From Eledone cirrhosa (taxonomy: Eukaryota): a DNA stretch of 64,000 nt. The position numbers were made by a program, and so were the translations under genes. The stretch is from assembly GCA_964016885.1 (NCBI GenBank), contig OZ024745.1:106082001-106146000 (forward strand). Direction: 5' to 3'. The notes under the pieces are model-generated. The model searched no databases, had not been told where the DNA came from, and saw only the letters and a program-made list of their open reading frames with translations. This document shows, piece by piece, positions 3,906 to 63,280 of this stretch; the first letter of the stretch is position 1; every line of letters starts with the position of its first letter.

Positions 3906-6900
3906 TTAAATATATACATGCATACATCCATATACGTACACTTGCATACGTGAAAACACCCGCCATGGATATGTTTATACAAGCACGTACACAAAAACAC
4001 GCGCACACATACAAAAACAAACGCAACGCCTGTACCCGTACACATACGAACGTATACACCAAATACACATACAAATATATTTAAAAAAAATATATATGTG
4101 TGTTTGTGTGTGCATGTATACATATAATTATATAAACGTATATAAATATACACACTTAAATACGTATATAACGCGCCGACTCACATACCTATAGGTAAAT
4201 ACACATATGTTCGCTAAACGTACGTCAACCAAAACACAATGTACATATAAACACACCCTACATACGTGCAAACCCGCATTCACACTCGAACGCAAAATAC
4301 ACGTATACACATGTAACATATACACATGTACCAGTATATATAATGTAATATATACACCTATAACAAATACAAGCAAATATACGTACGAGAAAATATAGTA
4401 CCTTCACAAAAATACAAGTAAGGTATACTTACCTATACAAATATGTAACGGTATAAACATAAAATATACTTAGCTATCATATCAAGACGTAAATTATCCG
4501 CGTATTGTTCGAACTTTCCATTAGGGTATAATGTGGGGCTGTAATACAGGAAAGTTTTATGCAACTTATGATTACAAGCCGAAATTGCCTCGAATTTTTG
4601 TTTAAGATATGGTTATTGGCGTAGATTATTTCCAGGGTTTCAGCGGCGCAGAGGTCACATGATCTTTTATTTCTGTTTACGATCTAGCCTAAGCTAGGAT
4701 CTCCCAGTGTAACCTATATTGGGTGTGGTTGTCTTATAGACTCCAGATATAAGCTGAAAGTGACGTCATATTCCTTCTTAACGGGTTAAGAAAAGAATAG
4801 GTATAAATGTAAAGACGCTGCTCGAATCTATTGGCGGTTAAGCCTATGCAGGCCCTACGGGACGTGGGTGTTTCAACCTTGCATTTGTAGACAATGTTAC
4901 TGGAGAGGCATTTTCCGGATAAGGAGCAGTCAACCCGATTCCTACAATTACAGTTAGTACTAGCTACAGGGTTGCACGTGTTCCTACGGCTAGGTAATTT
5001 AGTTAAATTTGGAGCAGTGATGTTATGTGCAAGGTTAAGAGTCGTAGAGTAAGAAATTTTAATGGTATTTCTATTAAAAATATTATTATATTTATGTTGA
5101 GGATATTTGAGCTGCAGATTCTACGGTGGAGGAAACATATTTAAGTTATATGTTAGTGTAAGGTTAAACATGGATGAAAACTTCACATTTCATTTAATTT
5201 TTAAAGCACACAATTATGACTGCAACCGCCATAATATTTGTCATTTGTTTCCTTCTATTTATTTGTTCATGGAGGGTCTAGAATCAAAGAGATTAAAATA
5301 TTGATCTATTATACAGAAATATACCTGTATATATTGTGGTATATAAATATAGGAATATATAGAATAATGTCTATAAATATTAAAGAACCAAATTTCTATT
5401 CAAGCCAAGTTGATAAACAAGTGTTATTTTTATCAAGGAGAATATCCGGTATTGACTTCGATTTTCAAAGAAATATCAATTCTAATATTTTACTGTGTTC
5501 GAAAACAATGTCGTTTGGTGTGGTCCAATGAGTTTTTCGGACTTATTTCCGATATTGGTGAAAATCACCTCCACAAAACCATCTATATTTTGTGCTGTGT
5601 TTAACGATCTGCGACAAGGTGAAAGCTGACGTCTATATACTAAATATGACTTCAAAGTCATGACCAACTACTTCTCTTCGCTTCAGTACTACAAAGCTTT
5701 CTCTCAGCCACATTTCAAACATTAACTACTGTCTGAAAATAAAACTATTCAACAGCACAACATTTACAATAGTATCAAGAATTAACTGAAGTTAGAAGTT
5801 CCTGTCAATGCGGACACGTGGTTCAAGCGATTTCCTGACACAATTTTCTCTAAAGATAAAACAAAATCAAATCGAATAAGTCATACAGTTAGATTATAAT
5901 CTAAATCTGTAATTTGGACAAAGAGAGGCTCTGTTATATTTCCAGACAGAAAATATACTGATACATAATGTTTATAAGAGGCTGTGTCATATAGGTTTTC
6001 AACAATTACAGTTTTGGGCAGAATGTTTTTGTGATAAATATTGATTTTCTACATTGGCACAACATTTTACTAAAAAGCTGTGAGTCGATTATATGTATTT
6101 TATCAATTTCGGAAAGAGGGATGGTCAATCTCACCACAGTTTGTTTTTACGCTCAAAATAGAAAATCATAACCAAATTATCACACGACATTACAAACCAA
6201 GCTACATCCAAACATACTCCTAATTACATCCTGCAATCTTGAATAAAAACAAATAATACGTTAGTCGTAGGAAATAAGAAGCCATATTCAACACTGGAAC
6301 GGCTTTGTTCAAGGTTTGTTTGACCAAAGTTGTTATGTATCACAAAAACAAGACGTTCAAGATATTTCATTTTTTTCGGTGTTGTACAGAATTTGTCATT
6401 TTATCCATTTGTTTCTTGAAAATATCAAACTATTTTCAGAAGTCTCGGGGATTGACTAAATTATATTAATTATTTAAGAGCTCTTTTCTCAATTGTTTGC
6501 TTCTGTAGACGAGTTTCTAAATTAATTACAATATTTATTTATTGATTTATATACATGTTTCTAATTTCTTAGCATTCTTTTGTCGAATCTATATACAATA
6601 TTATACATGTGTAACTAGTTGTACATTTTAAATTCTTTCGCTTTTTATAGCTTGCAGGTATTTAGTTTATATCATATCAAGTTGACAAATGGGTTGTTAC
6701 AGAAGAAATAGCAAGCCAAAGATTGAACCTTATCAATTTCACTCAACGTTTTAGAAACAGCAGACAAATGTTCATCAAATTACACGCTACAGTCTATAAA
6801 AAGAAACGATATTTTTTACTGGAAAAATCTAATTCATTTCTTACGAATGAAATATTTTAATCATACTTAGGCATACTTAAACAATGTTAAATTATTATCT

Positions 6901-13622: not shown

Positions 13623-13675
13623 AAGCTTCCTGATGATTTCTCACGAATGAAAGAGTTCTAGTCCTGTAGAAGCTT
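13623..13675 (+). ncRNA. Type I HHR (family C)
   Basis: AAGCTTC-CTGATGA-TTTC TCAC GAAT-GAAA..CTGTA-GAAGCTT; insert 13596-13758 has a short inverted arm. Confidence 0.75.
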
Positions 13676-13755
13676 TTCTATATTAAAACATTTATACTCT
13701 GCTATGTATTGAGTACCTTACTTACTGTGGTTACCCCCTATTCAACCCGGAATAA

Positions 13756-13808
<53 letters not shown>

Positions 13809-18735: not shown

Positions 18736-21705
18736 ATGAAACTATATTCATAAAACCATATTCTATTATATATATTTCAAGGGTACCAAAAACTTTTGTA
18801 CGCCTTTTTCAGATAAAATACAAAGTTTGTTTTCAAAATTTTGACATAACCAAGAAACAAAAAATACCTTAACGGTTCAAGTTTTTCCTGGATAGTGAAG
18901 AAAAAGAGAAGGAAAGTAATATATTTCAAATTATTAAGATAAGTATGCAAATGAGGTTGAAATATATGGCTGAAAAAACGTTATTTTTAGACGCTATGCA
19001 GAATTTAAATAATTAGGATATATGTATGTATAAGTAGGAAGAAGAAAAAAAAAGAAAGAAGAGCTTGTACTTACGTTAATTTAAAAGTAATTAACATTTT
19101 GCGGGAATGGTGGAATATCATTCCAGAATTTAAAATTTATTTAGCTATATTATAAGTTATAATATTGTATATATAATCAATTAGATTATATGAAGAATTA
19201 TGGTTGTAAGTAGATTTTATTTTATTACATTACAACCGGTTGTAAGTATATAAATATCTATATAGAGTAATACTTGTGCATGTATAAGTATTATAGAAAT
19301 AGAAATGTTACAATTTCTCATATGAATTACGAAGGATGATAATTATGAATTTTACATTAAAAAAACCGTAGTTTAAGTTGTAAGAGGAGAACAATTTTGT
19401 AGATTCAAATATTTTGTTCCAACATTGGAAATGTTTTCAGAATATTGTTAATTTAGCGAAGTAATATAGTTTTTCATACATATTATATTATAATATAATG
19501 TTTATGTTTGCTCGATTTAAAAGGAAAAGATAACTCCAATCTTGTTTGCTAACCGTTAAATTTGATGAAAAATTTACTCAGAAAATATATATAGAAAATT
19601 ATACATCATTTTGTGTGAGATTAATTTCAATTATATATTGTTTTAGTTGAAAGATGTGTGAAAGTTTGAAGATCAAAGAAGAGGGAAAAAAGCAATGTGA
19701 ATTTTGAAGAACTATCGTAAAGAGGATAACTTTCAGAATGTCAGTTAAAGGTTATCAATCTACATCTAAAAAAATATATTTATAGGAGTATCATTAAGAA
19801 AATAATGCCAAATGGTGAAAATAGTAAAAATATTAAAAATTAAAAATTAGAAGGAAGATCGTCTAAAAAACTTTAAATTCAAATGTTTAAAGAAAATACT
19901 TAGTAAATAATAGGATCATTTTAAAGGTGCATAAGATATAGTCAAGTGTAATAAATATCATGAATTAAAAATAATCTTGAAAGTGGAATTTTGGCGATGT
20001 CTGCAACAAGAAAATAATTCTGTTTTAAGATTAACAGAATTTTGACAGTTAATTATATAAAAAATTTCTTCGATACACAAGTTACATAATCTTGAGAAAG
20101 CCATATTTCGGTATGCAGGTGCTTTCGAAGTCGTTCCCCCAAGATATTGTTGTGCTTTAAATTCCAAATTAAATGTGAAAGTGAAGTGGAAGATTTTTTA
20201 TCGGATCTATTAAATGTGTGTTTATAGTTATACCAGCGTTCTTTGAATTTTGTAGAAGTGGCACCAATATAGTTAAATATTTTGTCCCTAGTTTTAACTG
20301 TGCATTTATATATTACGTTTTTGTCTAAGCAATTATTTTGTAAGAGGCAGTTTGATTTAATTCTAGTTACATTTTCTGGAGTTGTTATTCGGAACGGTAC
20401 TATTATTATGGATATTGTTGTTAGAAATATTATTATTGCTATCTTTGTTTGTTTGGTTAGGGTTTAAATTTAAGTTCCTATTATTAATTCTATTTATATT
20501 TCGTGCTATGTTCATAGTAGTAGAGTAGGATAGTTTTATAGTGTGTCGGTTAAAAAAGAGTGGTATCTGTGGGCTTTAGGAAAACACTTATTTAGTGCTT
20601 TAAAAAATAGTATTGCTAAAGGTGTTTTAACGCTTAATGAGAATGGGGGAGAGTACCAAATAATATTTCTAGTTCTAATTTTTTTGTTTGGTGTAGTATT
20701 TAAGTTAAATTGTTTATTGTTATTATAATTAATTCTAGGATGATTTGTCATGTTATTGTTATCTATGTATTTAATTTTGTTCGAGTATCCGGCTCAATGT
20801 AAAGCTTCATTGTAATATTCTGCCTTATTATCAAAAATATTTTTATTAGCAGAGATGCATGAAATCCGTTGTTGGACGCTATTGACAATAGTGTTTTTTT
20901 TATATATCTAGGATGATTAGAATTGAAACTTATGTAACGTAGATTTTCGTTAATTTTATGGACTGGATAATAAAGACCTGTGCTAAGGTTTAAGGTTACA
21001 TCTAAGAAGTTAACGATTTTGTAATTATTCTAGATTTCTAAATTAAGGTTGTAGTTGTTGAAAAATTGTATTGTGGATTTCCTTTTCCTATTAATTTCAC
21101 TATTGTTATGGTTTTCAATTAAAAGTAACATATCGTCGCGATATAAACCTCCGGTCATCTCTGGCCTTTTCCTATGCAGTACTATATTAATAAATAATCC
21201 AACGCGGTCCGTTACTTGCGCCGAGTCAGATGATCCCATAGTGATATCCAAATTGTTTTTACTGTCGGCTATTGTCCAGAGATGATTATTAAATTCTATT
21301 AGGGTTTTACGTGATATTAGAATTATATTCATTTCTTCACTAGATAGGTCTGTATGTTTAGACGTGTAGATAATTGCCTTATTAAGTAAGCTAGGGGTAA
21401 TAGAGGAATAGTAATTTGCAATATCCATTTGAATGAATTTTTGCTTATGTTTTAATTTTATGTTATTAAACCAATCTATAACTTCATTAGTACCGTTCCA
21501 TAGTTTAAGGTGTGATTTTTCTTTAAGTAGTAGTATAATTCTATCTAATATATGCTTGCTAATTAGGCCTAAGTCAGATTTAGATGGTGCGTTGAGTCTG
21601 ACTGGGAGTTCAATTTCAAGATTTATTCAGGTTAATCTTCAGTTTTCTGGGTATAAAGGGTTCGGGCCTATTTTGAATGCCTAATTTATATATATATATT
21701 AATAA
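18733..21705 (-). mobile_element. 5'-truncated PLE2, Naiad-like
   Basis: DIANYYSSI, DITMGSSDSAQVTD, GLYRDD, IWYSPPFS, NVIYKC..YIG, LCNLC, SCCRH; AT-rich tail ends in a decayed family A HHR at about 18760-18820 (contiguity of tail assumed). Confidence 0.85.
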
Positions 21706-29559: not shown

Positions 29560-29876
<317 letters not shown>

Positions 29877-36271: not shown

Positions 36272-38477
36272 GTTAGAATATGTGTAATAAGGCCAAGACA
36301 ATGCAGATATGGACATAGAAAAAAGAATGCAATAGTGAGAGATATTGATGAGAATTCGTCTTTCACCTTGAATTTATTTAAATGTCCTTAATTTTCGAGA
36401 TAATATCTCTTCTTCGGAGGGAAGTAAAAGTCTCAGACCAGCGTCTTAAATTTCCAATGAAGCCATGCTGACCGGAAATAGTATAGAGTTCTAACTTTAA
36501 TATCAAAGAATTAAAATTAGGTGGGTAAATAGTAGTCTCCCTTTAAGAGGGGTTTGTTTATGTTTTTGTTGTGTTTTTTTAAATTTTATATGCGCGCCTG
36601 TATATGTGTGTGGGAGAAAGCATGAAGGTGTAGAAATCGAAAATGCACCTGGAGTCTCTTTTTATAAAAATATATATTTATTTGGTTCCTTTACTGATTT
36701 CGCAGTTCTTCTGCTTTTCAAAAGTAGATTTGAGATGGAGTGTTTGTGGTTTTTCTCACATCTGGTTGGTGTTTGAATATTACTTCTGTTTTATATGGAA
36801 AAAAGTGGCTCGAAATGCTAGGTTTTAGAGAAGTAATTTGGTTGGTTGGTGAATAATTATAATAAATTTCGCGCCAGTTCGCGTTACAAATTTCTTATTA
36901 TATTTGACTTCAAAAAAAGAGGGGAGGGGTTCAGGTTGTTTTTTCATATATGAGTGAAGTTTGGTTGGTTGATGCAGTCACGTGAATAAGCACATCAGCT
37001 TTCGCGCCAGTTTGTATTTGAATTTCTTTTTACTTAAAAAAAGATGGCTCACTAAGGCTTTTTTTTATAAATGTAATTTGATTGGTTATAAATGAAATTA
37101 TGACTGCCACGTGAACAAGTACATTAAATTTCGCGTCCGTATTTTGGAATTTTTTTTTTTGTAACCATTTAGACAATTTTGTGCCAAACAAAACATAATG
37201 GTCAAGAAAAAGGGATGGAGAGAGTTGTTCTGAGTATGACTGATGTGCTGATATGTAATTTGATTGGTTATAAATGAAATTATGACTGTCACGTGAACAA
37301 GTACATTAAATTTCGCGCCCGTATTTGGGAATTTATTTTGTAGCCTTTTAGAGAATTTTATGCCAAACAAAAGATAATGGTCAAGAAAAATGAGAGGGGG
37401 ATAATTGTTCTGGTTCAGTGAATATGGCTAGTGCGCTGGGGTGTCAGAATTCAGACTTTCTATTGAAATAAAGAAAGTAGAGTTATGTATGTTTATTTGT
37501 GTGCTGGTGTGTGTAGGAAGATGATTCTATTAGTAGAAATAGGGGAGGGAGTTGTGTGTGTGTGTGTATGGGTGTTATGTGTGTGTTATGTGTGTGTGTA
37601 TGTGTGTGTGGGAGTATGATTAGCATGTTAAGATGGAAAGAATATATATATTTTTTTGTGTGTGGGGTGGGGGGAATGATTCCGTTAGTAGAAATGGGAG
37701 AGGGAGTTATGTGTGTGTGGGTCGTGTGGTTAGCATGTTAAGGTGTTAGAGTATTAACGTATGTTAAGGTTTATTTAGTTCTGGTTTTTATTTTCTTAAA
37801 TAGAAGGTGTTATGTGTGTGTGTATGTCTGTGTCTGTTTGAATGGTTAGCATGTTATGGTGTTGACATAATTTATATTAAACTATATTTGTTGCTGGTCT
37901 ATATTTTTGAATAAACATATTTTCCTTATTTATTCGTATTTGTTCTGTTGTATTGTCAGCGCAAAGATAAAATGGGAAGACTTGGAATTTGGGTGTCTTA
38001 TTACTTGCGCATATGTCTAGATGTGCACTTAGTGGTATCTGTCTTGTGGTAGGATCTCGTAATTGTTGGCTATGAGCTGTCATTCTGTTTCTGAGTGTTT
38101 AGTTTGTCCTATATAATCTTCATTGCATACTTTACATTTAATGGCATAAATTAGATTTTTTGATGAGCAAGTGAAGTGATTTTTTACAGCAAAATGTTGT
38201 CCTGATTGAAATGTTTACGTGTTGCCTTCAATGATGTGAGTGCAGGTTCCACAATTAGAGCGACCACATTTTTTGACAGTTAGTTGTGCGTTTGTGGTAG
38301 GTCATTTGGCATTGGTGAGTAATGTTTTTAGTGATTTCGGTTGTCTTTTGCTTTTGATTATTTTGTGTTTCAAGGGCTTTTTTCATTCTTGGGTCTTGTT
38401 TCAATAGTAGGATGTTATTGTGAATAGTGTTGTGAGCTTCCGCATTTCTTGGGTTGTGTGTTGAGATATATGATAGA

Positions 38478-38534: not shown

Positions 38535-38692
38535 ATGTATGTGTATATATATATATATATATGTAGATAAATCTACCAAAATATACGGTAGTGTCCAATC
38601 CGTATGAAGAACTCAATGTAATTCAAATATCATGAAGAGAAGAGATGCATTCAAAAATTTTCGATGAAAATCATAGGAAAACAGAGTCAAGA

Positions 38693-38970
38693 TAAATTAA
38701 TATAAACACAATGAATAAAAACAAAGAACAAGTTCCTTATATTAAATAATGCATCATTTTATGATCGTTTCTAGGATGTATATGGGTTTTGGCATGTATA
38801 TCATATAGATCTATGTAAATATATTATTTCCTCTGATAGTTTGCAATATTTTTACTTAGATCTATATGATATACATGCCAACACACATATACATCCTAGA
38901 AACGATCGTAAAATTATGAATTTTTTAATATAAGGAACTTGTTCTTTGTTTTTATTCATTGTTTTTATTA

Positions 38971-38977
<7 letters not shown>
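38693..38977. repeat. Fold-back insert with HHR 3' half (family E)
   Basis: Arms of about 125 bp; right arm has AGAAACGATCGTA (palindromic stem III, GUA). Confidence 0.85.
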
Positions 38978-39025
<48 letters not shown>

Positions 39026-39028
39026 ATG

Positions 39029-39084
<56 letters not shown>

Positions 39085-39329
39085 TAAGTATGTATGTATA
39101 CGTACATACATATATGTATACAGACGTACAGTAGCATGCATATATATATATTTATATATATATATACATATATACATACAGGTACACATATATATATATG
39201 TACGTATCAGTTTAGCGGACGTTTATTATAACGCCCGCTTTGTCCGTTTGTAAACAAACTGACAGCCTGATTTATGCCGTACGGTGTTAAGGTAGCCACG
39301 TCACCCTTTTGTTCAACACTGACACAGGA

Positions 39330-39372
39330 ACGATGTACTAGTTTCAAGCTTCTTAGCTATCATCAGCACCGT
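39330..39372 (-). ncRNA. Minimal type I HHR
   Basis: Exact reverse complement of 39704-39746. Confidence 0.85.
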
Positions 39373-39703
39373 ATACCCTGTCTGCCAGATGGTTGAACGT
39401 TCGAAAGTATATACTTTCCTTATGAAAATTAACGGCTGAGCAGCCTAATTTGCATATCGAGTGACTTCAGTCGGCCAGGCGTACCGAAAACGATAAGTTG
39501 TAAAAGAATGAAACGAAATTTCATTTCTCACTCTTAGTACGGCACTTACTTAAATGTAAGTATGTATTTATACGTACATACATATATGTATACAGACGTA
39601 CAGTAGCATGCATATATATATATTCATATATATATACATATATACATACATTCATAAGGAAAGTATATACTTTCGAACGTTCAACCATCTGGCAGAAGGG
39701 TAT

Positions 39704-39746
39704 ACGGTGCTGATGATAGCTAAGAAGCTTGAAACTAGTACATCGT
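39704..39746 (+). ncRNA. Minimal type I HHR
   Basis: ACGGTG-CTGATGA-TAGCT AAGA AGCTT-GAAA-CTAGTA-CATCGT. Confidence 0.85.
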
Positions 39747-40084
39747 TCCTGTGTCAGTGTTGAACAAAAAGGTGACGTGGTTGCCTTAACACCGTACGGC
39801 ATATATCAGGCTGTCAATTTGTTTGCAAACGGACAAAGCGGGCGTTATAATAAACGTCCGCTAAACTGATACGTACATATATATATGTGTACCTGTATGT
39901 ATATATATATAAATATATATATATATATGCATGCTACTGTACGTCTGTATACATATATGTATGTACGTATACATACATACTTACATTTAAGTAAGTGCCG
40001 TACTAAGAGTGAGAAATGAAATTTTATTTCATTCTTTTACAACTTATCGTTTTCGGTACGCCTGGCCGACTGAACTCACTCGAT

Positions 40085-40092
40085 ATGCAAAT
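40085..40092 (+). promoter_or_regulatory. Octamer motif ATGCAAAT within the repeat unit
   Basis: Exact match, also at 39448-39455 (-); function untested. Confidence 0.35.
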
Positions 40093-40166
40093 TAGGCTGC
40101 TCAGCCGTTAATTTTCATAAGGAAAGTATATACTTTCGAACGTTCAACCATCTGGCAGAAGGGTAT

Positions 40167-40209
40167 ACGGTGCTGATGATAGCTAAGAAGCTTGAAACTA
40201 GTACATCGT
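40167..40209 (+). ncRNA. Minimal type I HHR
   Basis: Identical to 39704-39746. Confidence 0.85.
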
Positions 40210-40515
40210 TCCTGTGTCAGTGTTGAACAAAAAGGTAACGTGGTTGCCTTAACACCGTACGGCATAAATCAGGCTGTCAGTTTGTTTACAAACTGACAAA
40301 GCGGGCGTTATAATAAACGTCCGCTAAACTGATACGTACATATATATATGTGTACCTGTATGTATATATGTATATATATATAAATATATATATATGCATG
40401 CTACTGTACGTCTGTATACATATATGTATGTACGTATACTTACATTTAAGTAAGTGCCGTACTTAGAGTGAGAAATGAAATTTCTTTTCATTCTTTTACA
40501 ACTTATATATATATA

Positions 40516-41168
40516 AAATTTATATTTAATCCTAGAATTAAAGATTAACTGATTAATTTTATTAGATGATTCTATTGATTAATTAATTGTTTAAGTTTGT
40601 TTGATAACTTCTAGTCGAGTGCTTTATTCGGTTTGTATAAGGGGATTCATTCCTTTATCTCAAATTAGAATACACCGCCTAAGCGGGGGTTACCTCCCTT
40701 GGATAAAACCACGTGTCTGTGCCGACCTTTAAAGTTACAACATACCCGCTTTGGCTAAGAACGAAAGACTTGCTGAAGAAGTAAATCCTATGTTCTGTCG
40801 TCAAAAACCATTATATTGCAGACTCCTGCAATAGGAATTTGTCGATCATGGATTTGCAGAAACTTAGCGCTGATGTTGCGTGCGATATTGCGATCTATAT
40901 TGTGGATACCCGATGTGTGTTATATATTTTACACTCAGCCTCAGCGTTATATCCAGGTCAGTAAAAAATCTTTTCCTGGGTCCTGTATTTTCGTTGCTCT
41001 GGTAATGCGGTCGGACTGCCGACTGCTATATCTGATTTGCTAAGCTGTCTGAACGCAATGTTATTACTCTGGGGTCTTACCTCATCTGAGTGCTAAAGCT
41101 ACAGGCCGAATCTGCATACACGTTAACTTGGCCGTATACTAGAGCTTCGTCTATGCTGTACTAAAATG
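40516..41168 (+). mobile_element. Non-coding insert with degenerate long-stem-II HHR
   Basis: CTGAAGA-A-GTAAATCC..GGATTTGC-A-GAAA at 40773-40862; 3' end matches 26240-26337 (+) and 11019-11150 (-). Confidence 0.55.
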
Positions 41169-57624: not shown

Positions 57625-59728
57625 CAAATATACATCTTTGTCGATACTTGCCGGCGTACTGTGAATCGGTTCCGTTTTTACCAGCATTCTCGTCGCACTA
57701 ACATCACGCGAACTAGGCTCTCCGCTCTTCGCAACCTTTGGCGTCGCGATGACATTGTCATCAAACCCGCTGACAAAGGTGGCGCTGTGGTGGTTTGGAG
57801 CGCTGAACTCTATAGGGCTGAGGCTGTTCTCCAGCTTCACAATACTCTTTTTTACCGCCCTTTATCCTCGGACCCCACACCTGGCTACCAGCAACTCGTG
57901 TCCTCCTCCATCCACGAGCTCATCTCCTCCTCTCACCTACCCCCACAGCCACCAACCTTATTGTACGCACCCCTTGCACACCCACCATCTACTTCCTCCC
58001 CAAAATACACAAACAAAATAATCCTGGCCATCCTATCGTTTCTGCACGCAACAACGCCACCGAGATAATTTCTGAATATTTAGACACCATCCTCGCCCCC
58101 TTGGTCAGCAATCCCCCCCCCCACACACACACACACACATCCACGATACAAATCACGCCTTTAAACTCTTCAATTCTTTCTCCTTCCCTCCTGGTCCCTC
58201 CCGCCTTCTCTTTACCCTGGACATCACTTCTCTATATACCGTCATCCCTCATGATAACGGCCTCCGCGCTCTCCAGCATTTTTTAGATTAACGCCCTACC
58301 CTTTACCCCAGCACTACCACTCTTCTCCGTCTGGCTGAGCGTGTTCTCGCCCTTAATGGATTTTCTTTTTCGGGTGAATTTTACCAGCGGGTCTCTGGGG
58401 TAGCGATGGGAACCAGAATGGGTCCAAACTATGCCAACTTGTTTGTTGGATACGTCGAAGCCCAGATCTTCTCCCTGTACTGCTGAGCTATACAGTCGTT
58501 ATATCGACGACTGTAACGGCGCCACCTCTCTATCACGAGAACAGCTCGACAGTTTTCTTTCTTTTGTCCATCCTGCTCTCAATTTCACCGCTTCCGTCTC
58601 CGATTCTTCTATCGATTTTCTAGATATCTCTCTATCTATTAATCACTCTCACCACACCCTCTCTACTTCCATCTTCATTAAACCAACAGACTCCCAACTT
58701 TATCTCGACTTCACCTCCTCCCATCCAACCCACACCAAACACTCCATACCCTATTCCCAATTGCTCCGTCTTCATCGACTCTGTAGTCAGGACGACGATT
58801 TCGAAATTCATTCCCTTCGTAGGCCTTCCTGCTTCATCCAGCGTGGATATCCCCCCCACCTTGATCCAAGCTGCACGGCCCTCTCACCTCACCCCTCCCC
58901 TCCCAACACCCGTGTTCGTTTCCCTCTCACCTACCACCTCATCACCCTACGACTCCGGCGACATATCCTCCGTTCCTTCCGTATTCTCTCTTCTGACCCC
59001 GTCACTTCTCGCTTTTATCCAAACCCACCCATTACTGCTTTTAAGCGCGCCCGCAACCTCCGTGACCTCCTGGTTCGCAGTTCCTTTTCGTCCTCTCCCA
59101 CGACTCCACCCGGCTCTCATCCTTGTTCCCGTTCCCGCTGAAACACTTGTCCCTTTATTTCCACCTTCACCACTCTTACAGGCCCTAACGGGTCTTTCCG
59201 TATCCGCCATTCCTTCACCTACACATCCATCCACGTTGTCTATGCCCTCCGGTGTTCCCTTTGCGGGTCTTTATATATCTGACTAACGGGACGCCGTATG
59301 GCGGACCGTTTTGCCGAGCATTTGATGGACATACGACTCGGTTTGGATACTCCTGTCGCCCGTCATTTCTGTTCTTCTGGTCATTCTTCCCTACATGTTT
59401 CAGTCCTGGGGCTCTTTTTACATCATGGATCACAGGCCTCGCGCACCAGGACTGAACAAAGTCTGATTCACCGCCTTGGGTCCTATTCCTCTCTTGGACT
59501 CAACTCACCTCCACAATTTCTCTAATATCCCGTCCATTATCACACACCTAGATTCCTATCGCTTTCTCTTGATGATTAGCAGCTTCTCTTACAACTAATA
59601 CATGCCGATACACACCCTTATATTAACATACTTTTGCTCATAGGTTCGTACTTACATGCAGACACACTCTTTTACTCACATATACACACACATTTCTTCT
59701 TAGCTTCGTACGGACCTATAATAACACA

Positions 59729-60975: not shown

Positions 60976-63280
60976 TATGTAAGCACTTTAATACATGAAT
61001 ACACTTACATCTAACTATACACATCAAACATATATATATATTTACTTATTTATATACATTTTCACATATATATACATACTTATGGTCGCTTTTAGACACA
61101 TTCATTATCGCATATTTGCACCTATTCTCATCAGCATATCTTTCCATTATTAGTGTGCTAATTTAAGGTTATTAATATACATATATATATATGTTGAGAA
61201 GAGTTTGTTTTTATATTTTTCTAACTAGATTGAGGTTTATATAGTTGGGGGGATGTCCCTCTTTTATGTAATATTCTGCTTGTAGTGGGAAAAAAGGGTT
61301 TTAGTTCAGTGACGGCAGAATAATGTTCGTTCAATTCTGTTATTCAGCAATTTCTTCTTGTGTGTGATTATGTAATAAATCTCAAGATTACACAATTTGC
61401 AGAAATTTTGGCTCCTGCAAAAGCTTTGGGTTTTAGCTAATTTCTCCCATTTTAGGGTAAACTTTTGATCGCTATCCCTGAGCGTCCAAGCTTTTTCTGC
61501 TAAAGTTGTTACATTTCTTTGGCTCTGGTGTTTTATTGAGTAAGAATGCCTATATAATCGAGATTTAAACGATGTTGCCGTTGATCCCACGTAATACCAC
61601 TCGTTGCCTCCGGATTTAATGGTACACTTATAAATAATATTTTTTTCTAGGCAGTTATTGCCGAGGGGGCAGTTGTCAGGATAGGTGCAGTTACAGTTGT
61701 GTACGTTGGGTTTTCTCTGGAGTAGTATTGCGGACGAACTTAGGTGTGGTTTATTTATGTTCTGTAGTGTATTGTCTACTGTTTTTTTTGTGTTCTTTGT
61801 ACTTAAGTTTTTATTGTTTTCGTTTAACCTTCTAGTATTGATCTTTTTTATGTGTTGTTCAAGGTAGAGTATGACAGTCTTATAGTGGTAGGGTTTAGGA
61901 TTTTGTGGTATTTGTGTGATGTAGGAAAATGTCTCTTAATTATTTTAAAGAAGAGTACTGGTAAATTTGTACTAATGGAACTATTGTATTCGGGGTTATA
62001 CCATAAGTACTCTTTGCATCACTTTCTATTAGTTTTGTTTGTTGGTTTACTGGTGTGCATACTATGGTAGTAAGTGTGGTTTGGTGTTGTGTTATTATAT
62101 CTACCTATGTGGGATTTATTTTGGGTGTTTTGATTGTTCCCATCTATATACTCTATTTTGTTGAGGTAGCCTGCTTTACTAAGGGCGTTATCGTAGTACT
62201 CGGCGTGTTCCTTAAATACTTGTATGTTAGAAGATAAACCCGAGATTCTAAGGGAAATATTTTTAGGGATAGATTTAATTATAGAGATGGGGTGGTTAGA
62301 CCCAACATTTACGTATTTGAGATTTTCATTCAATTTATGAAACGGTTTAATCAGACCAGAGTTTAAATTGAGTGTGACATCCAGGAAGTTAACTACTTTA
62401 AGGTTGTATTCATATGTTATAGTTAGTCCTATTTCGAGTAGTAGTTTTCTTATATCTTTGCGTAGTTTTTCTAGTTTTTGGTTATTTAGGTTTTTAACTA
62501 GGAGGAGAACATCGTCGCGGTATATTCCGCCGTGGAGATTGCTGAATTTTTCCTGGAGTCTAAAGGCGATAAATAACCCCACAATATCAGTTATTTCCGC
62601 CGAATCGTTAGAGCCCATTGTTATGTCAAAGTTAGAGGGTCTATCTTTACGTACACAATAACTGTTCTCAAATTTGACTATAGTTTTCCTAGCTTCTAAT
62701 ATAATCTTAATTTCATCGTTTGTAAGGTCAGAGTTATCCTTAGCAAACTTAATGGCTCTATTCAAAGTTTCAGGTGATATCGATGAGTACTATTCATCGA
62801 TATCAAACTGGATAAACTTAGATTTATTCTTATTGCTAATGCTATTAAACCATCTTATTGCTTCTTGGGTGTTCCCCCAGAGTTTAATGTTAACCTTAGG
62901 CTTAATTTGGGGGATGATTCTATCTAAGATATATTTGCTTATTTTACCTATATCTGATTTAGAGGGGCAGATTAATCTAATTTTAGGGTCATTATCAAAG
63001 TTTACCTTATGGTCCTTAAGATTGAAGGTGGGTACCGCCGGTAAGAGTGGTCCTGTCCTATCTTCGATTCCGAGATTTTTCACTATTTCGCATGCCTCAT
63101 CATTGATGTGCTTAAGAGTTATTTCATTCGTTTTTCTATATTTTTTATGTAATTCTTTTCGAATGAAGTTGTTGTATGTAGTGCAATCCATAGTATACAT
63201 GTTTGATGTTTTGTCCGCTTTTACTACAATTCCTTTGGTGTTTTTAAGGTCGTCCAGTAGTTTTTTAATATCTTTAATAT
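60206..63280 (-). mobile_element. 5'-truncated PLE3, Naiad-like
   Basis: KADKT, LKDHK, FIQFDI, FDITMGSNDSAEITDIVG, YRDD, NFLDV, SNHP, CNC..CPL..CLEKNIIYKC..YVG, CKLC, CRH. Confidence 0.92.
60242..60348 (-). ncRNA. Type I HHR of PLE3 with extended stem II
   Basis: TTATT-CTGATGA-A-ATGACAGT..(about 60 nt)..ACTGTTAT-A-GAAA-CACGTG-TC-AATAA. Confidence 0.75.

What the first reader, a model, noticed from the sequence alone, without database searches (positions are those of the whole stretch)
39085..40504. 463-bp hammerhead tandem (retrozyme-like) with a candidate snRNA-type promoter
Seen: a non-coding unit repeats with period 463. Each copy has an identical minimal type I HHR (palindromic stem III ACTAGT, GUA site), and the array is divergent within (TA)n. 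The unit also has a perfect octamer ATGCAAAT about 80 nt upstream of the HHR, then TTCATAAGGAAAGTAT, which loosely resembles a vertebrate PSE, plus hairpins GAAAGTATATACTTTC and AGCGGGCGTT/AACGTCCGCT. Known: non-LTR retrozymes are HHR tandems that yield monomeric circular RNAs and are thought to be mobilised by PLEs; newt satellite 2 is reported to use octamer/PSE elements. Inference: a self-transcribing, self-processing circRNA element of about 463 nt in a probable cephalopod.
Basis: partly seen in the sequence, partly recalled or inferred. Interest (0 to 1): 0.85.

Follow-up and report, generated by a model that had tools for sequence, protein, structure and literature searches.

The report
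Retrozyme with host U6-like promoter block
This is one insertion of a very abundant protein-free jumping repeat with a predicted self-cutting RNA motif (a retrozyme, a known kind of element); its ends bear the footprint of Penelope-type retrotransposons, and just ahead of the ribozyme it carries the same 12-base word found upstream of the host's own U6 RNA genes, so it likely has a built-in promoter, though transcription, cutting and circular RNA are untested.

Summary
Confirmed: two head-to-head arms of a 463-nt non-coding unit between (TA)n tracts, with three identical type I hammerhead cores. It is a dispersed family: 479 exact cores and about 31,900 related ones, in families as little as 60% identical that share one compensated fold. 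No PLE ORF lay directly upstream of any fetched copy. Arms end at two internal sites about 60 nt apart, one site per arm in 26 of 29 inverted insertions: the PLE 'tail' signature. Young arrays hold up to 16 identical units across both arms, favouring a circular template. The octamer, however, sits in TATGCAAATTAG, the longest invariant run across subfamilies, and the matching block lies at -77 to -79 of host U6 genes (12 of 20 loci). It is followed by a TATA-like word, though 4-6 bp closer than in U6, and it is also a hairpin arm. No RNA evidence was available. Verdict: animal non-LTR retrozyme with a probable snRNA-gene-type internal promoter. The scan found this kind of element before, in this and other genomes.

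The parts
39651..40506 (+). Right arm: one full unit (39651-40113) plus q1-397; 3' end at site E2 (..CAACTTA|TATA)
39079..39650 (-). Left, inverted arm: q244-463 plus q1-339; 3' end at site E1, running into (TA)n
39694..39752 (+). Type I hammerhead with extended stem I; core 39710-39740; predicted cut after GUA at 39740
   Evidence: stem I and stem II compensatory pairs
40157..40215 (+). Second hammerhead; core 40173-40203; predicted cut after 40203
39324..39383 (-). Third hammerhead, on the inverted arm; core 39366-39336
39741..40203 (+). Cut-to-cut 463-nt monomer; branched fold closed by stem I (z -7.3 linear, -8.0 circular)
40084..40095 (+). TATGCAAATTAG block (octamer 40085-40092), identical to the block upstream of one host U6 gene; also the 5' arm of a hairpin
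39445..39456 (-). Same block on the inverted arm
40127..40132 (+). TATATA 34 nt after the octamer (also at 39664 and on the - arm); if it is a TATA box the start is predicted near 40157, at the start of stem I
   Evidence: start site inferred
39869..39970 (+). Long TA-rich internal hairpin of variable length; frequent site of the inversion junction
38974..39080 (.). (TA)n target tract on the left (short (TA)n on the right at about 40505-40515)

Best explanation
This is one insertion of a non-autonomous hammerhead retroelement (animal non-LTR retrozyme) that is likely transcribed from an internal promoter resembling the host's U6 upstream region, is predicted to cut itself into ~460-nt monomers that would circularise, and is likely copied into (TA)n microsatellites by a Penelope-like (PLE) reverse transcriptase-endonuclease. 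Shown: the tandem and head-to-head anatomy, copy number, conserved fold, two fixed internal 3' ends, identical units in young arrays, and the U6-shared block. Inferred: (1) a start about 30 nt after the TATA word, just before stem I, so the promoter lies inside the unit and is rebuilt in every tandem or circle; (2) cleavage at GUA, probably as a dimer through the palindromic stem III; (3) ligation to a circle by a host ligase; (4) a PLE enzyme cuts both strands of (TA)n and starts cDNA at two internal sites (q329-339, q387-397), one per strand, running round the template to give two back-to-back arms of repeated units. Odds: retrozyme mobilised by a PLE 0.9; circular template 0.6; block acts as a promoter 0.55.
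For: Family: 479 exact cores; 31,924 looser matches against 27 control; 8,703 octamer-linked cores of other stem II types, mostly family C. Fold: families A, B and C (A vs C 60% identical) give the same helices; 28 of 126 pairs show both-side changes against 12.7 in shuffles and 4-12 in slid controls. PLE footprint: 84 of 119 terminal runs end at two sites, 75 of those 84 followed by (TA)n, 0 of 119 end between q398 and the next core; 46 of 84 segments are head-to-head; 26 of 29 classifiable inverted insertions have one arm at each site, binomial p 8e-6. This matches two-site internal initiation on both strands shown for an anole PLE (PMC11167929) and the PLE inverted-plus-tail layout. Template continuous over the cut: 0 of 30 inspected copies (of 1,696 matches) start at the cut. 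Single template: 16 monomers with 0 differences over both arms, 17 with at most 1, nearest elsewhere about 3; 6 identical family A cores over both arms. Promoter: TATGCWAATKAG at -77 to -79 in 12 of 20 U6 loci (three promoter types), displaced to -271 in 6 more, absent from 12 of 12 U1/U2/U5 promoter types; shuffle frequency 0.00075 and background 0.003 per unit; it is the longest invariant run among four subfamily majorities; octamer-to-TATA-like distance 33-34 nt in A, B and C although the sequence after it varies in length.
Against: The block is also a hairpin arm (helix 21, 96% paired). A run of 10 or more invariant columns arises in 30% of shuffles, and the U6 comparison was made after the octamer was flagged. 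Octamer-to-TATA spacing is 33-34 nt against 38-40 in U6; family C has CATATA there; the distal TTACCTCCCTT-type word of most host U1, U2 and U6 promoters is absent from the unit. T4-T6 runs in every monomer examined would be expected to stop Pol III before a full unit. 9 of 20 family B monomers lack the exact octamer. Older arrays are heterogeneous (mean 4-17 differences; 35 of 89 within-array variable sites have both alleles in other arrays, 27 of them not CpG-type). In the anole PLE uncleaved RNA was the dominant substrate. No partner PLE was found: the neighbouring PLE family showed no hammerhead motif next to its long ORFs beyond one weak motif and no similarity to the unit.
Confidence: 0.6

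Rival explanations
1. Same element and same PLE enzyme, but the template is an uncleaved multimeric transcript of an existing array and no circle is needed.
For: Unprocessed RNA was the dominant substrate for the anole PLE in vitro. The ribozyme is weak as a monomer (active fold -1.1 kcal/mol; U-U mismatch, 1-bp stem III). The same hairpins form in a multimer. A homogeneous parent array would also give identical units. 8 of 9 Xenopus dimers did not cleave.
Against: Arrays of 16-17 near-identical units would need 8-kb transcripts uncut at ten or more ribozymes from an already homogeneous parent, while many arrays are heterogeneous. The ribozyme core and stems are kept with compensatory changes across families.
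Confidence: 0.3
2. The octamer and TATA words are kept only as RNA structure or a protein-binding site on the RNA; the element has no promoter and is transcribed by read-through.
For: Both words lie in predicted hairpins. Spacing differs from U6 by about half a helical turn. A review states that metazoan retrozymes seem to have no promoter (PMC7761336). In one family B array the octamer is changed in a way that improves pairing.
Against: The invariant run coincides with the block defined from U6 alone. The octamer arm stays fixed while its partner arm changes between A and B. TATATA stays at the same distance in B copies that lost the hairpin around it.
Confidence: 0.4
3. The unit is simply the pseudo-LTR of an autonomous PLE, and these are truncated copies.
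For: The ends and inversions are PLE-like. Xenopus retrozymes are homologous to PLE pLTRs. A PLE endonuclease fragment lies about 630 nt to the left.
Against: No tested PLE ORF piece lies within 400 nt upstream on the same strand of an element copy in 211 overlapping loci (five PLE query proteins only). Only 1 of 29 other copies of the neighbouring PLE has the unit nearby, beyond its own 3' UTR. Arrays are pure unit tandems up to more than 35 kb. Descent from a pLTR remains possible.
Confidence: 0.07
4. Satellite DNA spread by unequal crossing-over or another DNA-level mechanism.
For: A heterogeneous array of about 70 units at G000:C2:60.57-60.61 Mb shows that local expansion happens.
Against: It does not explain the fixed paired 3' ends, (TA)n targeting, identical inverted arms or RNA covariation.
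Confidence: 0.03

Closest known systems
Animal non-LTR retrozymes (Cervera and de la Pena 2020, PMC7229834: outline, passages, sections 14, 15, 17 read; Li, Clavereau and Pollet 2026, 10.64898/2026.07.22.740005: parts 1-3 of 5 read)
   Same: Non-coding tandem unit with one type I hammerhead per unit, low GC, highly self-paired monomer, tens of thousands of copies, co-occurring PLEs. Stem III resembles axolotl HHR_Amex1 and the U-U mismatch resembles HHR_Amex2.
   Different: Unit 420-600 nt against 170-400 in the 2020 paper (within the 51-972 of the 2026 preprint). The 2020 review saw no promoter and no clue to the mobiliser; here there is a U6-shared block and a two-site PLE end signature. Expression and circles are not shown here.
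Newt satellite 2 (Coats, Zhang and Epstein 1994; paper not held; seen only as a passage and reference in PMC2220036)
   Same: Hammerhead tandem reported to be driven by an internal snRNA-type promoter (Pol II).
   Different: The newt element layout (octamer, PSE) is recalled, not read.
Endonuclease-bearing Penelope-like elements (Frangieh et al. 2024, PMC11167929: parts 1-2 of 4 read; Craig et al. 2021, 10.1101/2021.04.23.441226: passages read)
   Same: Two internal reverse-transcription start sites giving a tail on one end, inverted 5'-truncated copies, partial tandems, AT-rich or (TA)n targets, type I hammerhead.
   Different: No ORF; tail about 60 nt against 30-40; many identical units per arm; partner not identified.

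Membership tests
Animal non-LTR retrozyme | Type I hammerhead in each unit of a tandem (two or more consecutive) | tested here: met
   (170 cut-to-cut monomers)
Animal non-LTR retrozyme | Non-coding, no LTR, dispersed high copy number | tested here: met
Animal non-LTR retrozyme | Highly self-paired monomer | tested here: met
   z -7.3 to -9.3; covariation
Animal non-LTR retrozyme | Self-cleavage in vitro | not testable with these tools
   Core intact; predicted weak as a monomer, palindromic stem III duplex -4.8 kcal/mol
Animal non-LTR retrozyme | Expressed as monomeric linear and circular RNA | not testable with these tools
   Only contigs of unrecorded library kind were available
PLE-mobilised element | Two internal 3' ends (tail on one end), inverted 5'-truncated arm, microsatellite target | tested here: met
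   searches compared
PLE-mobilised element | Identified autonomous partner sharing terminal sequence | tested here: inconclusive
   None among the families tried; the search was not exhaustive
pLTR of an autonomous PLE | Unit directly follows or precedes an RT-GIY-YIG ORF | tested here: not met
Pol II snRNA (U1/U2/U5-type) promoter of the host | TCAGT at about -57, TATA-like at -30, distal TTACCTCCCTT-type word | tested here: not met
   Best + strand score -3.1 bits, null mean -0.7. Only TCAGC at the right spacing (shuffle frequency 0.034, absent in family C). No distal word.
U6-type (type 3) promoter of the host | TATGCWAATKAG block upstream of a TATA word | tested here: met
U6-type (type 3) promoter of the host | Octamer-to-TATA spacing of 38-40 nt and distal word | tested here: not met
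   33-34 nt; distal word absent
U6-type (type 3) promoter of the host | Start site about 30 nt after TATA; polymerase identity | not testable with these tools
   Predicted at q44 only

The most novel reading that the evidence does not exclude
About 30,000 copies of a self-sufficient circular-RNA retroelement that has captured the host's U6 upstream element and re-spaced it, places its start just before the ribozyme so that the promoter is regenerated inside every circle, and is copied by a PLE enzyme that primes both strands of a (TA)n break at two sites on one circle: genomic evidence for rolling-circle reverse transcription of retrozymes, with a defined promoter.
Probability: 0.3. Interest if true: 0.8.

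Novelty: new variant of a known kind. Interest (0 to 1): 0.55.

Why it matters
How animal retrozymes are transcribed and which enzyme copies them are open questions; the 2020 review saw neither a promoter nor a clue to the mobiliser. This family gives exact, testable predictions for both: a start near q44 under a 12-nt block shared with host U6 genes, and two cDNA start sites. If active, the block would also be a compact promoter for an animal group with few tools (inference). The class itself is known and this window is one of many copies.

Tried and rejected
Expression: no RNA holder listed. Laying contigs was uninformative: library kind is not on record, and run X23 tracks the deep runs roughly in proportion over both the element and the flanking repeats, so an apparent depth rise near the predicted start was dropped; X22 and X1 laid nothing. 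miRNA-family Rfam hits on the TA hairpin are all far below gathering score. Neighbouring PLE fragment as the element's own ORF: rejected. A second (TA)n-targeting hammerhead family in the window (13625-13757) as a link to the partner: similar AACTTA end, but no ORF link in 30 loci and no similarity beyond TA tracts and separate insertions. Search for further distant families with the same stem III: the first 100 of 5,671 matches were almost all family C or variants of A/B. 5' ends at the cut site: 0 of 30. The RNAalifold consensus mis-paired the octamer region because family C aligns poorly, so the window monomer's own fold was counted instead, which favours that fold against the slid controls. 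Rows dropped: the C2 60.57-Mb satellite was left out of the end counts and the polymorphic-column table; the TA tract was left out of family A/B distances. Literature searches with no description of this family in their listings: (on mollusc U6 promoters gave nothing relevant). Supplements of PMC7229834 were not opened and those of the 2026 preprint are closed; they, Repbase or Dfam could list cephalopod retrozymes.

Full report
Observation. With q1 = window 39651, the + arm is q1-463 then q1-397 (39651-40506) and the - arm is q244-463 then q1-339 (39650-39079). Both outer ends run into (TA)n. Three identical cores CTGATGA-TAGCTAAGAAGCTT-GAAACTAGTA lie at 39710(+), 40173(+) and 39366(-). Stem I is ACGGUG/CAUCGU with extensions, stem II is 4 bp with a U-U mismatch at its base, and stem III is one A-U pair plus a palindromic loop. 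These combine features of the two axolotl ribozymes, which cleave well only as dimers (PMC7229834 section 15). Rfam gives no hit at gathering score and only sub-threshold HH9 hits.

Family. The exact 31-nt core occurs 479 times; a looser pattern 31,924 times against 27 for the reversed control. Fetched copies fall into family A (the window's; 432-607 nt), B (420-503 nt, 84% identical to A) and C (461-469 nt, 60%), plus a B-like variant with a GUU site. Most are short dispersed arrays; one is a satellite of more than 35 kb. Folded separately, A, B and C monomers give the same branched structure closed by stem I (circular z -8.0, -9.3, -8.5). On 18 monomers, 28 of 126 pairs show both-side changes against 12.7 in shuffles. 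The sequences are related and the structure came from one of them, so this is supportive rather than a formal p value.

Not a PLE terminal repeat. A broken PLE endonuclease fragment lies at 38445-37877 (-). Its family is abundant and has frames up to 791 aa with RVT_1 and GIY-YIG domains, but its 3' UTR is unrelated to the unit and only 1 of 29 other copies has the unit nearby. No tested PLE ORF piece sits within 400 nt upstream of an element copy in 211 overlapping loci. Only five PLE query proteins were used, so the partner is unidentified, not excluded.

Insertion footprint. Of 119 terminal runs, 45 end at q329-339 (E1) and 39 at about q387-397 (E2); 75 of these 84 are followed by (TA)n. 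Another 15 stop at the internal TA hairpin or could not be followed past it. None ends between q398 and the next core, and none of the 6 runs lost just after the cut is followed by (TA)n. 46 of 84 segments are head-to-head, with scattered junctions that favour the TA hairpin. Purified anole PLE protein cuts and extends both strands of AT-rich DNA and starts cDNA at two adjacent internal sites, which explains the PLE tail (PMC11167929). The match is close, so PLE mobilisation is the best inference.

Template. Of 1,696 copies whose base before the cut is not A, 0 of 30 inspected start at the cut, so the template is continuous across it. Young arrays are clonal: 16 family C monomers with no difference over both arms, 17 with at most one, nearest monomers elsewhere about 3 away; 6 identical family A cores over both arms. 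This fits repeated copying of one circle. Against: older arrays differ internally by 4-17 sites on average, 35 of 89 within-array variable sites have both alleles elsewhere, and uncleaved RNA was the main substrate for the anole PLE. Circle 0.6, uncleaved multimer 0.3.

Promoter. Host U1, U2 and U5 genes share TCAGT at about -57 and a TATA-like word at about -30; most U1 and U2 also have TTACCTCCCTT at about -260. None has an octamer within 300 nt. Host U6 genes differ: TATGCWAATKAG lies at -77 to -79 in 12 of 20 fetched loci (three promoter types; most loci are one tandem cluster), at -271 in 6 (in the one printed, an insertion displaces it), and is absent in 2; TATA is at -30. The element has TATGCAAATTAG, identical to one U6 gene, in 106 of 115 A, 35 of 35 C and 6 of 20 B monomers (11 of 20 allowing TGG). 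Chance is 0.00075 per shuffled unit and 0.003 per background unit. It is the longest invariant run among four subfamily majorities, longer than the ribozyme's GAAACTAGT. A TATA-like word follows at 33-34 nt in all families, while the distance on to the core varies. A start 30 nt on falls at q44, exactly where stem I begins.

Limits of the promoter case. The spacing is 4-6 nt shorter than in U6, the distal word is missing, and the block is a hairpin arm. Long invariant runs alone are not significant (30% of shuffles reach 10), and the test was post hoc. T4-T6 runs in each monomer examined argue against simple Pol III transcription of a full unit, so a Pol II octamer-TATA promoter or read-through is at least as likely (from general knowledge of Pol III termination). 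I put promoter function at 0.55.

Known versus new. The element meets every testable criterion for an animal non-LTR retrozyme (PMC7229834; 10.64898/2026.07.22.740005). An internal snRNA-type promoter has precedent in newt satellite 2 (seen only as a passage in PMC2220036). My searches listed no description of this family, of a U6-shared block in a retrozyme, or of the two-site end signature in retrozymes; supplements and repeat databases were not seen. Earlier notes of this scan report the same kind of element many times in this and other genomes, with divided views on the promoter; they are not independent evidence. Verdict: new variant of a known kind, interest 0.55.

Noticed in passing
window 37877-38445 (-): 5'-truncated, broken PLE fragment (linker Zn finger plus GIY-YIG) of an abundant family (10,175 candidates; frames up to 791 aa) that shows no clear hammerhead next to its long ORFs; a separate insertion in the same (TA)n cluster.
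   Followed up: yes
window 38563-38970: Another head-to-head repeat element between (TA)n tracts, found in several other fetched loci at 75-95% identity; looks like the 3' end of a further PLE-type family.
   Followed up: partly
window 13625-13757, 29689-29740, about 31022: Second (TA)n-targeting hammerhead family with a U-U mismatch at the base of stem II, inverted arms and the same ..AACTTA|TA end; longer copies have CCAAT and TATA-like words just upstream of the ribozyme.
   Followed up: partly
window 9116, 9225, 12214, 25656, 31410, 33905, 56970: At least three further hammerhead-like families in this one window.
   Followed up: no
window 20212-21512, 58404-59525, 61522-62930, 4782-5117: Fragments of other PLE families.
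   Followed up: no
G000:C2:60568700-60606000 (L088-L091): Satellite of about 70 family A units with an apparent ~4-kb higher-order period, interrupted by a PLE fragment.
   Followed up: partly
L306, L307, L309-L312 (G000:C19, U6 cluster): In 6 of 16 fetched genes of a tandem U6 cluster the upstream block is displaced to -271; in L306 a SINE-like insertion sits between it and the TATA.
   Followed up: no
L031-L048, L300-L302, L320-L326: Host snRNA promoter words: TCAGT at -57, AATTAAA near -88, TATA at -30 (U1, U2, U5); TATGCWAATKAG at -78 (U6); TTACCTCCCTT near -260 (most U1, U2, U6).
   Followed up: partly
window 40690-40701: TTACCTCCCTTG, the distal snRNA word, inside an unrelated repeat just right of the array.
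   Followed up: no
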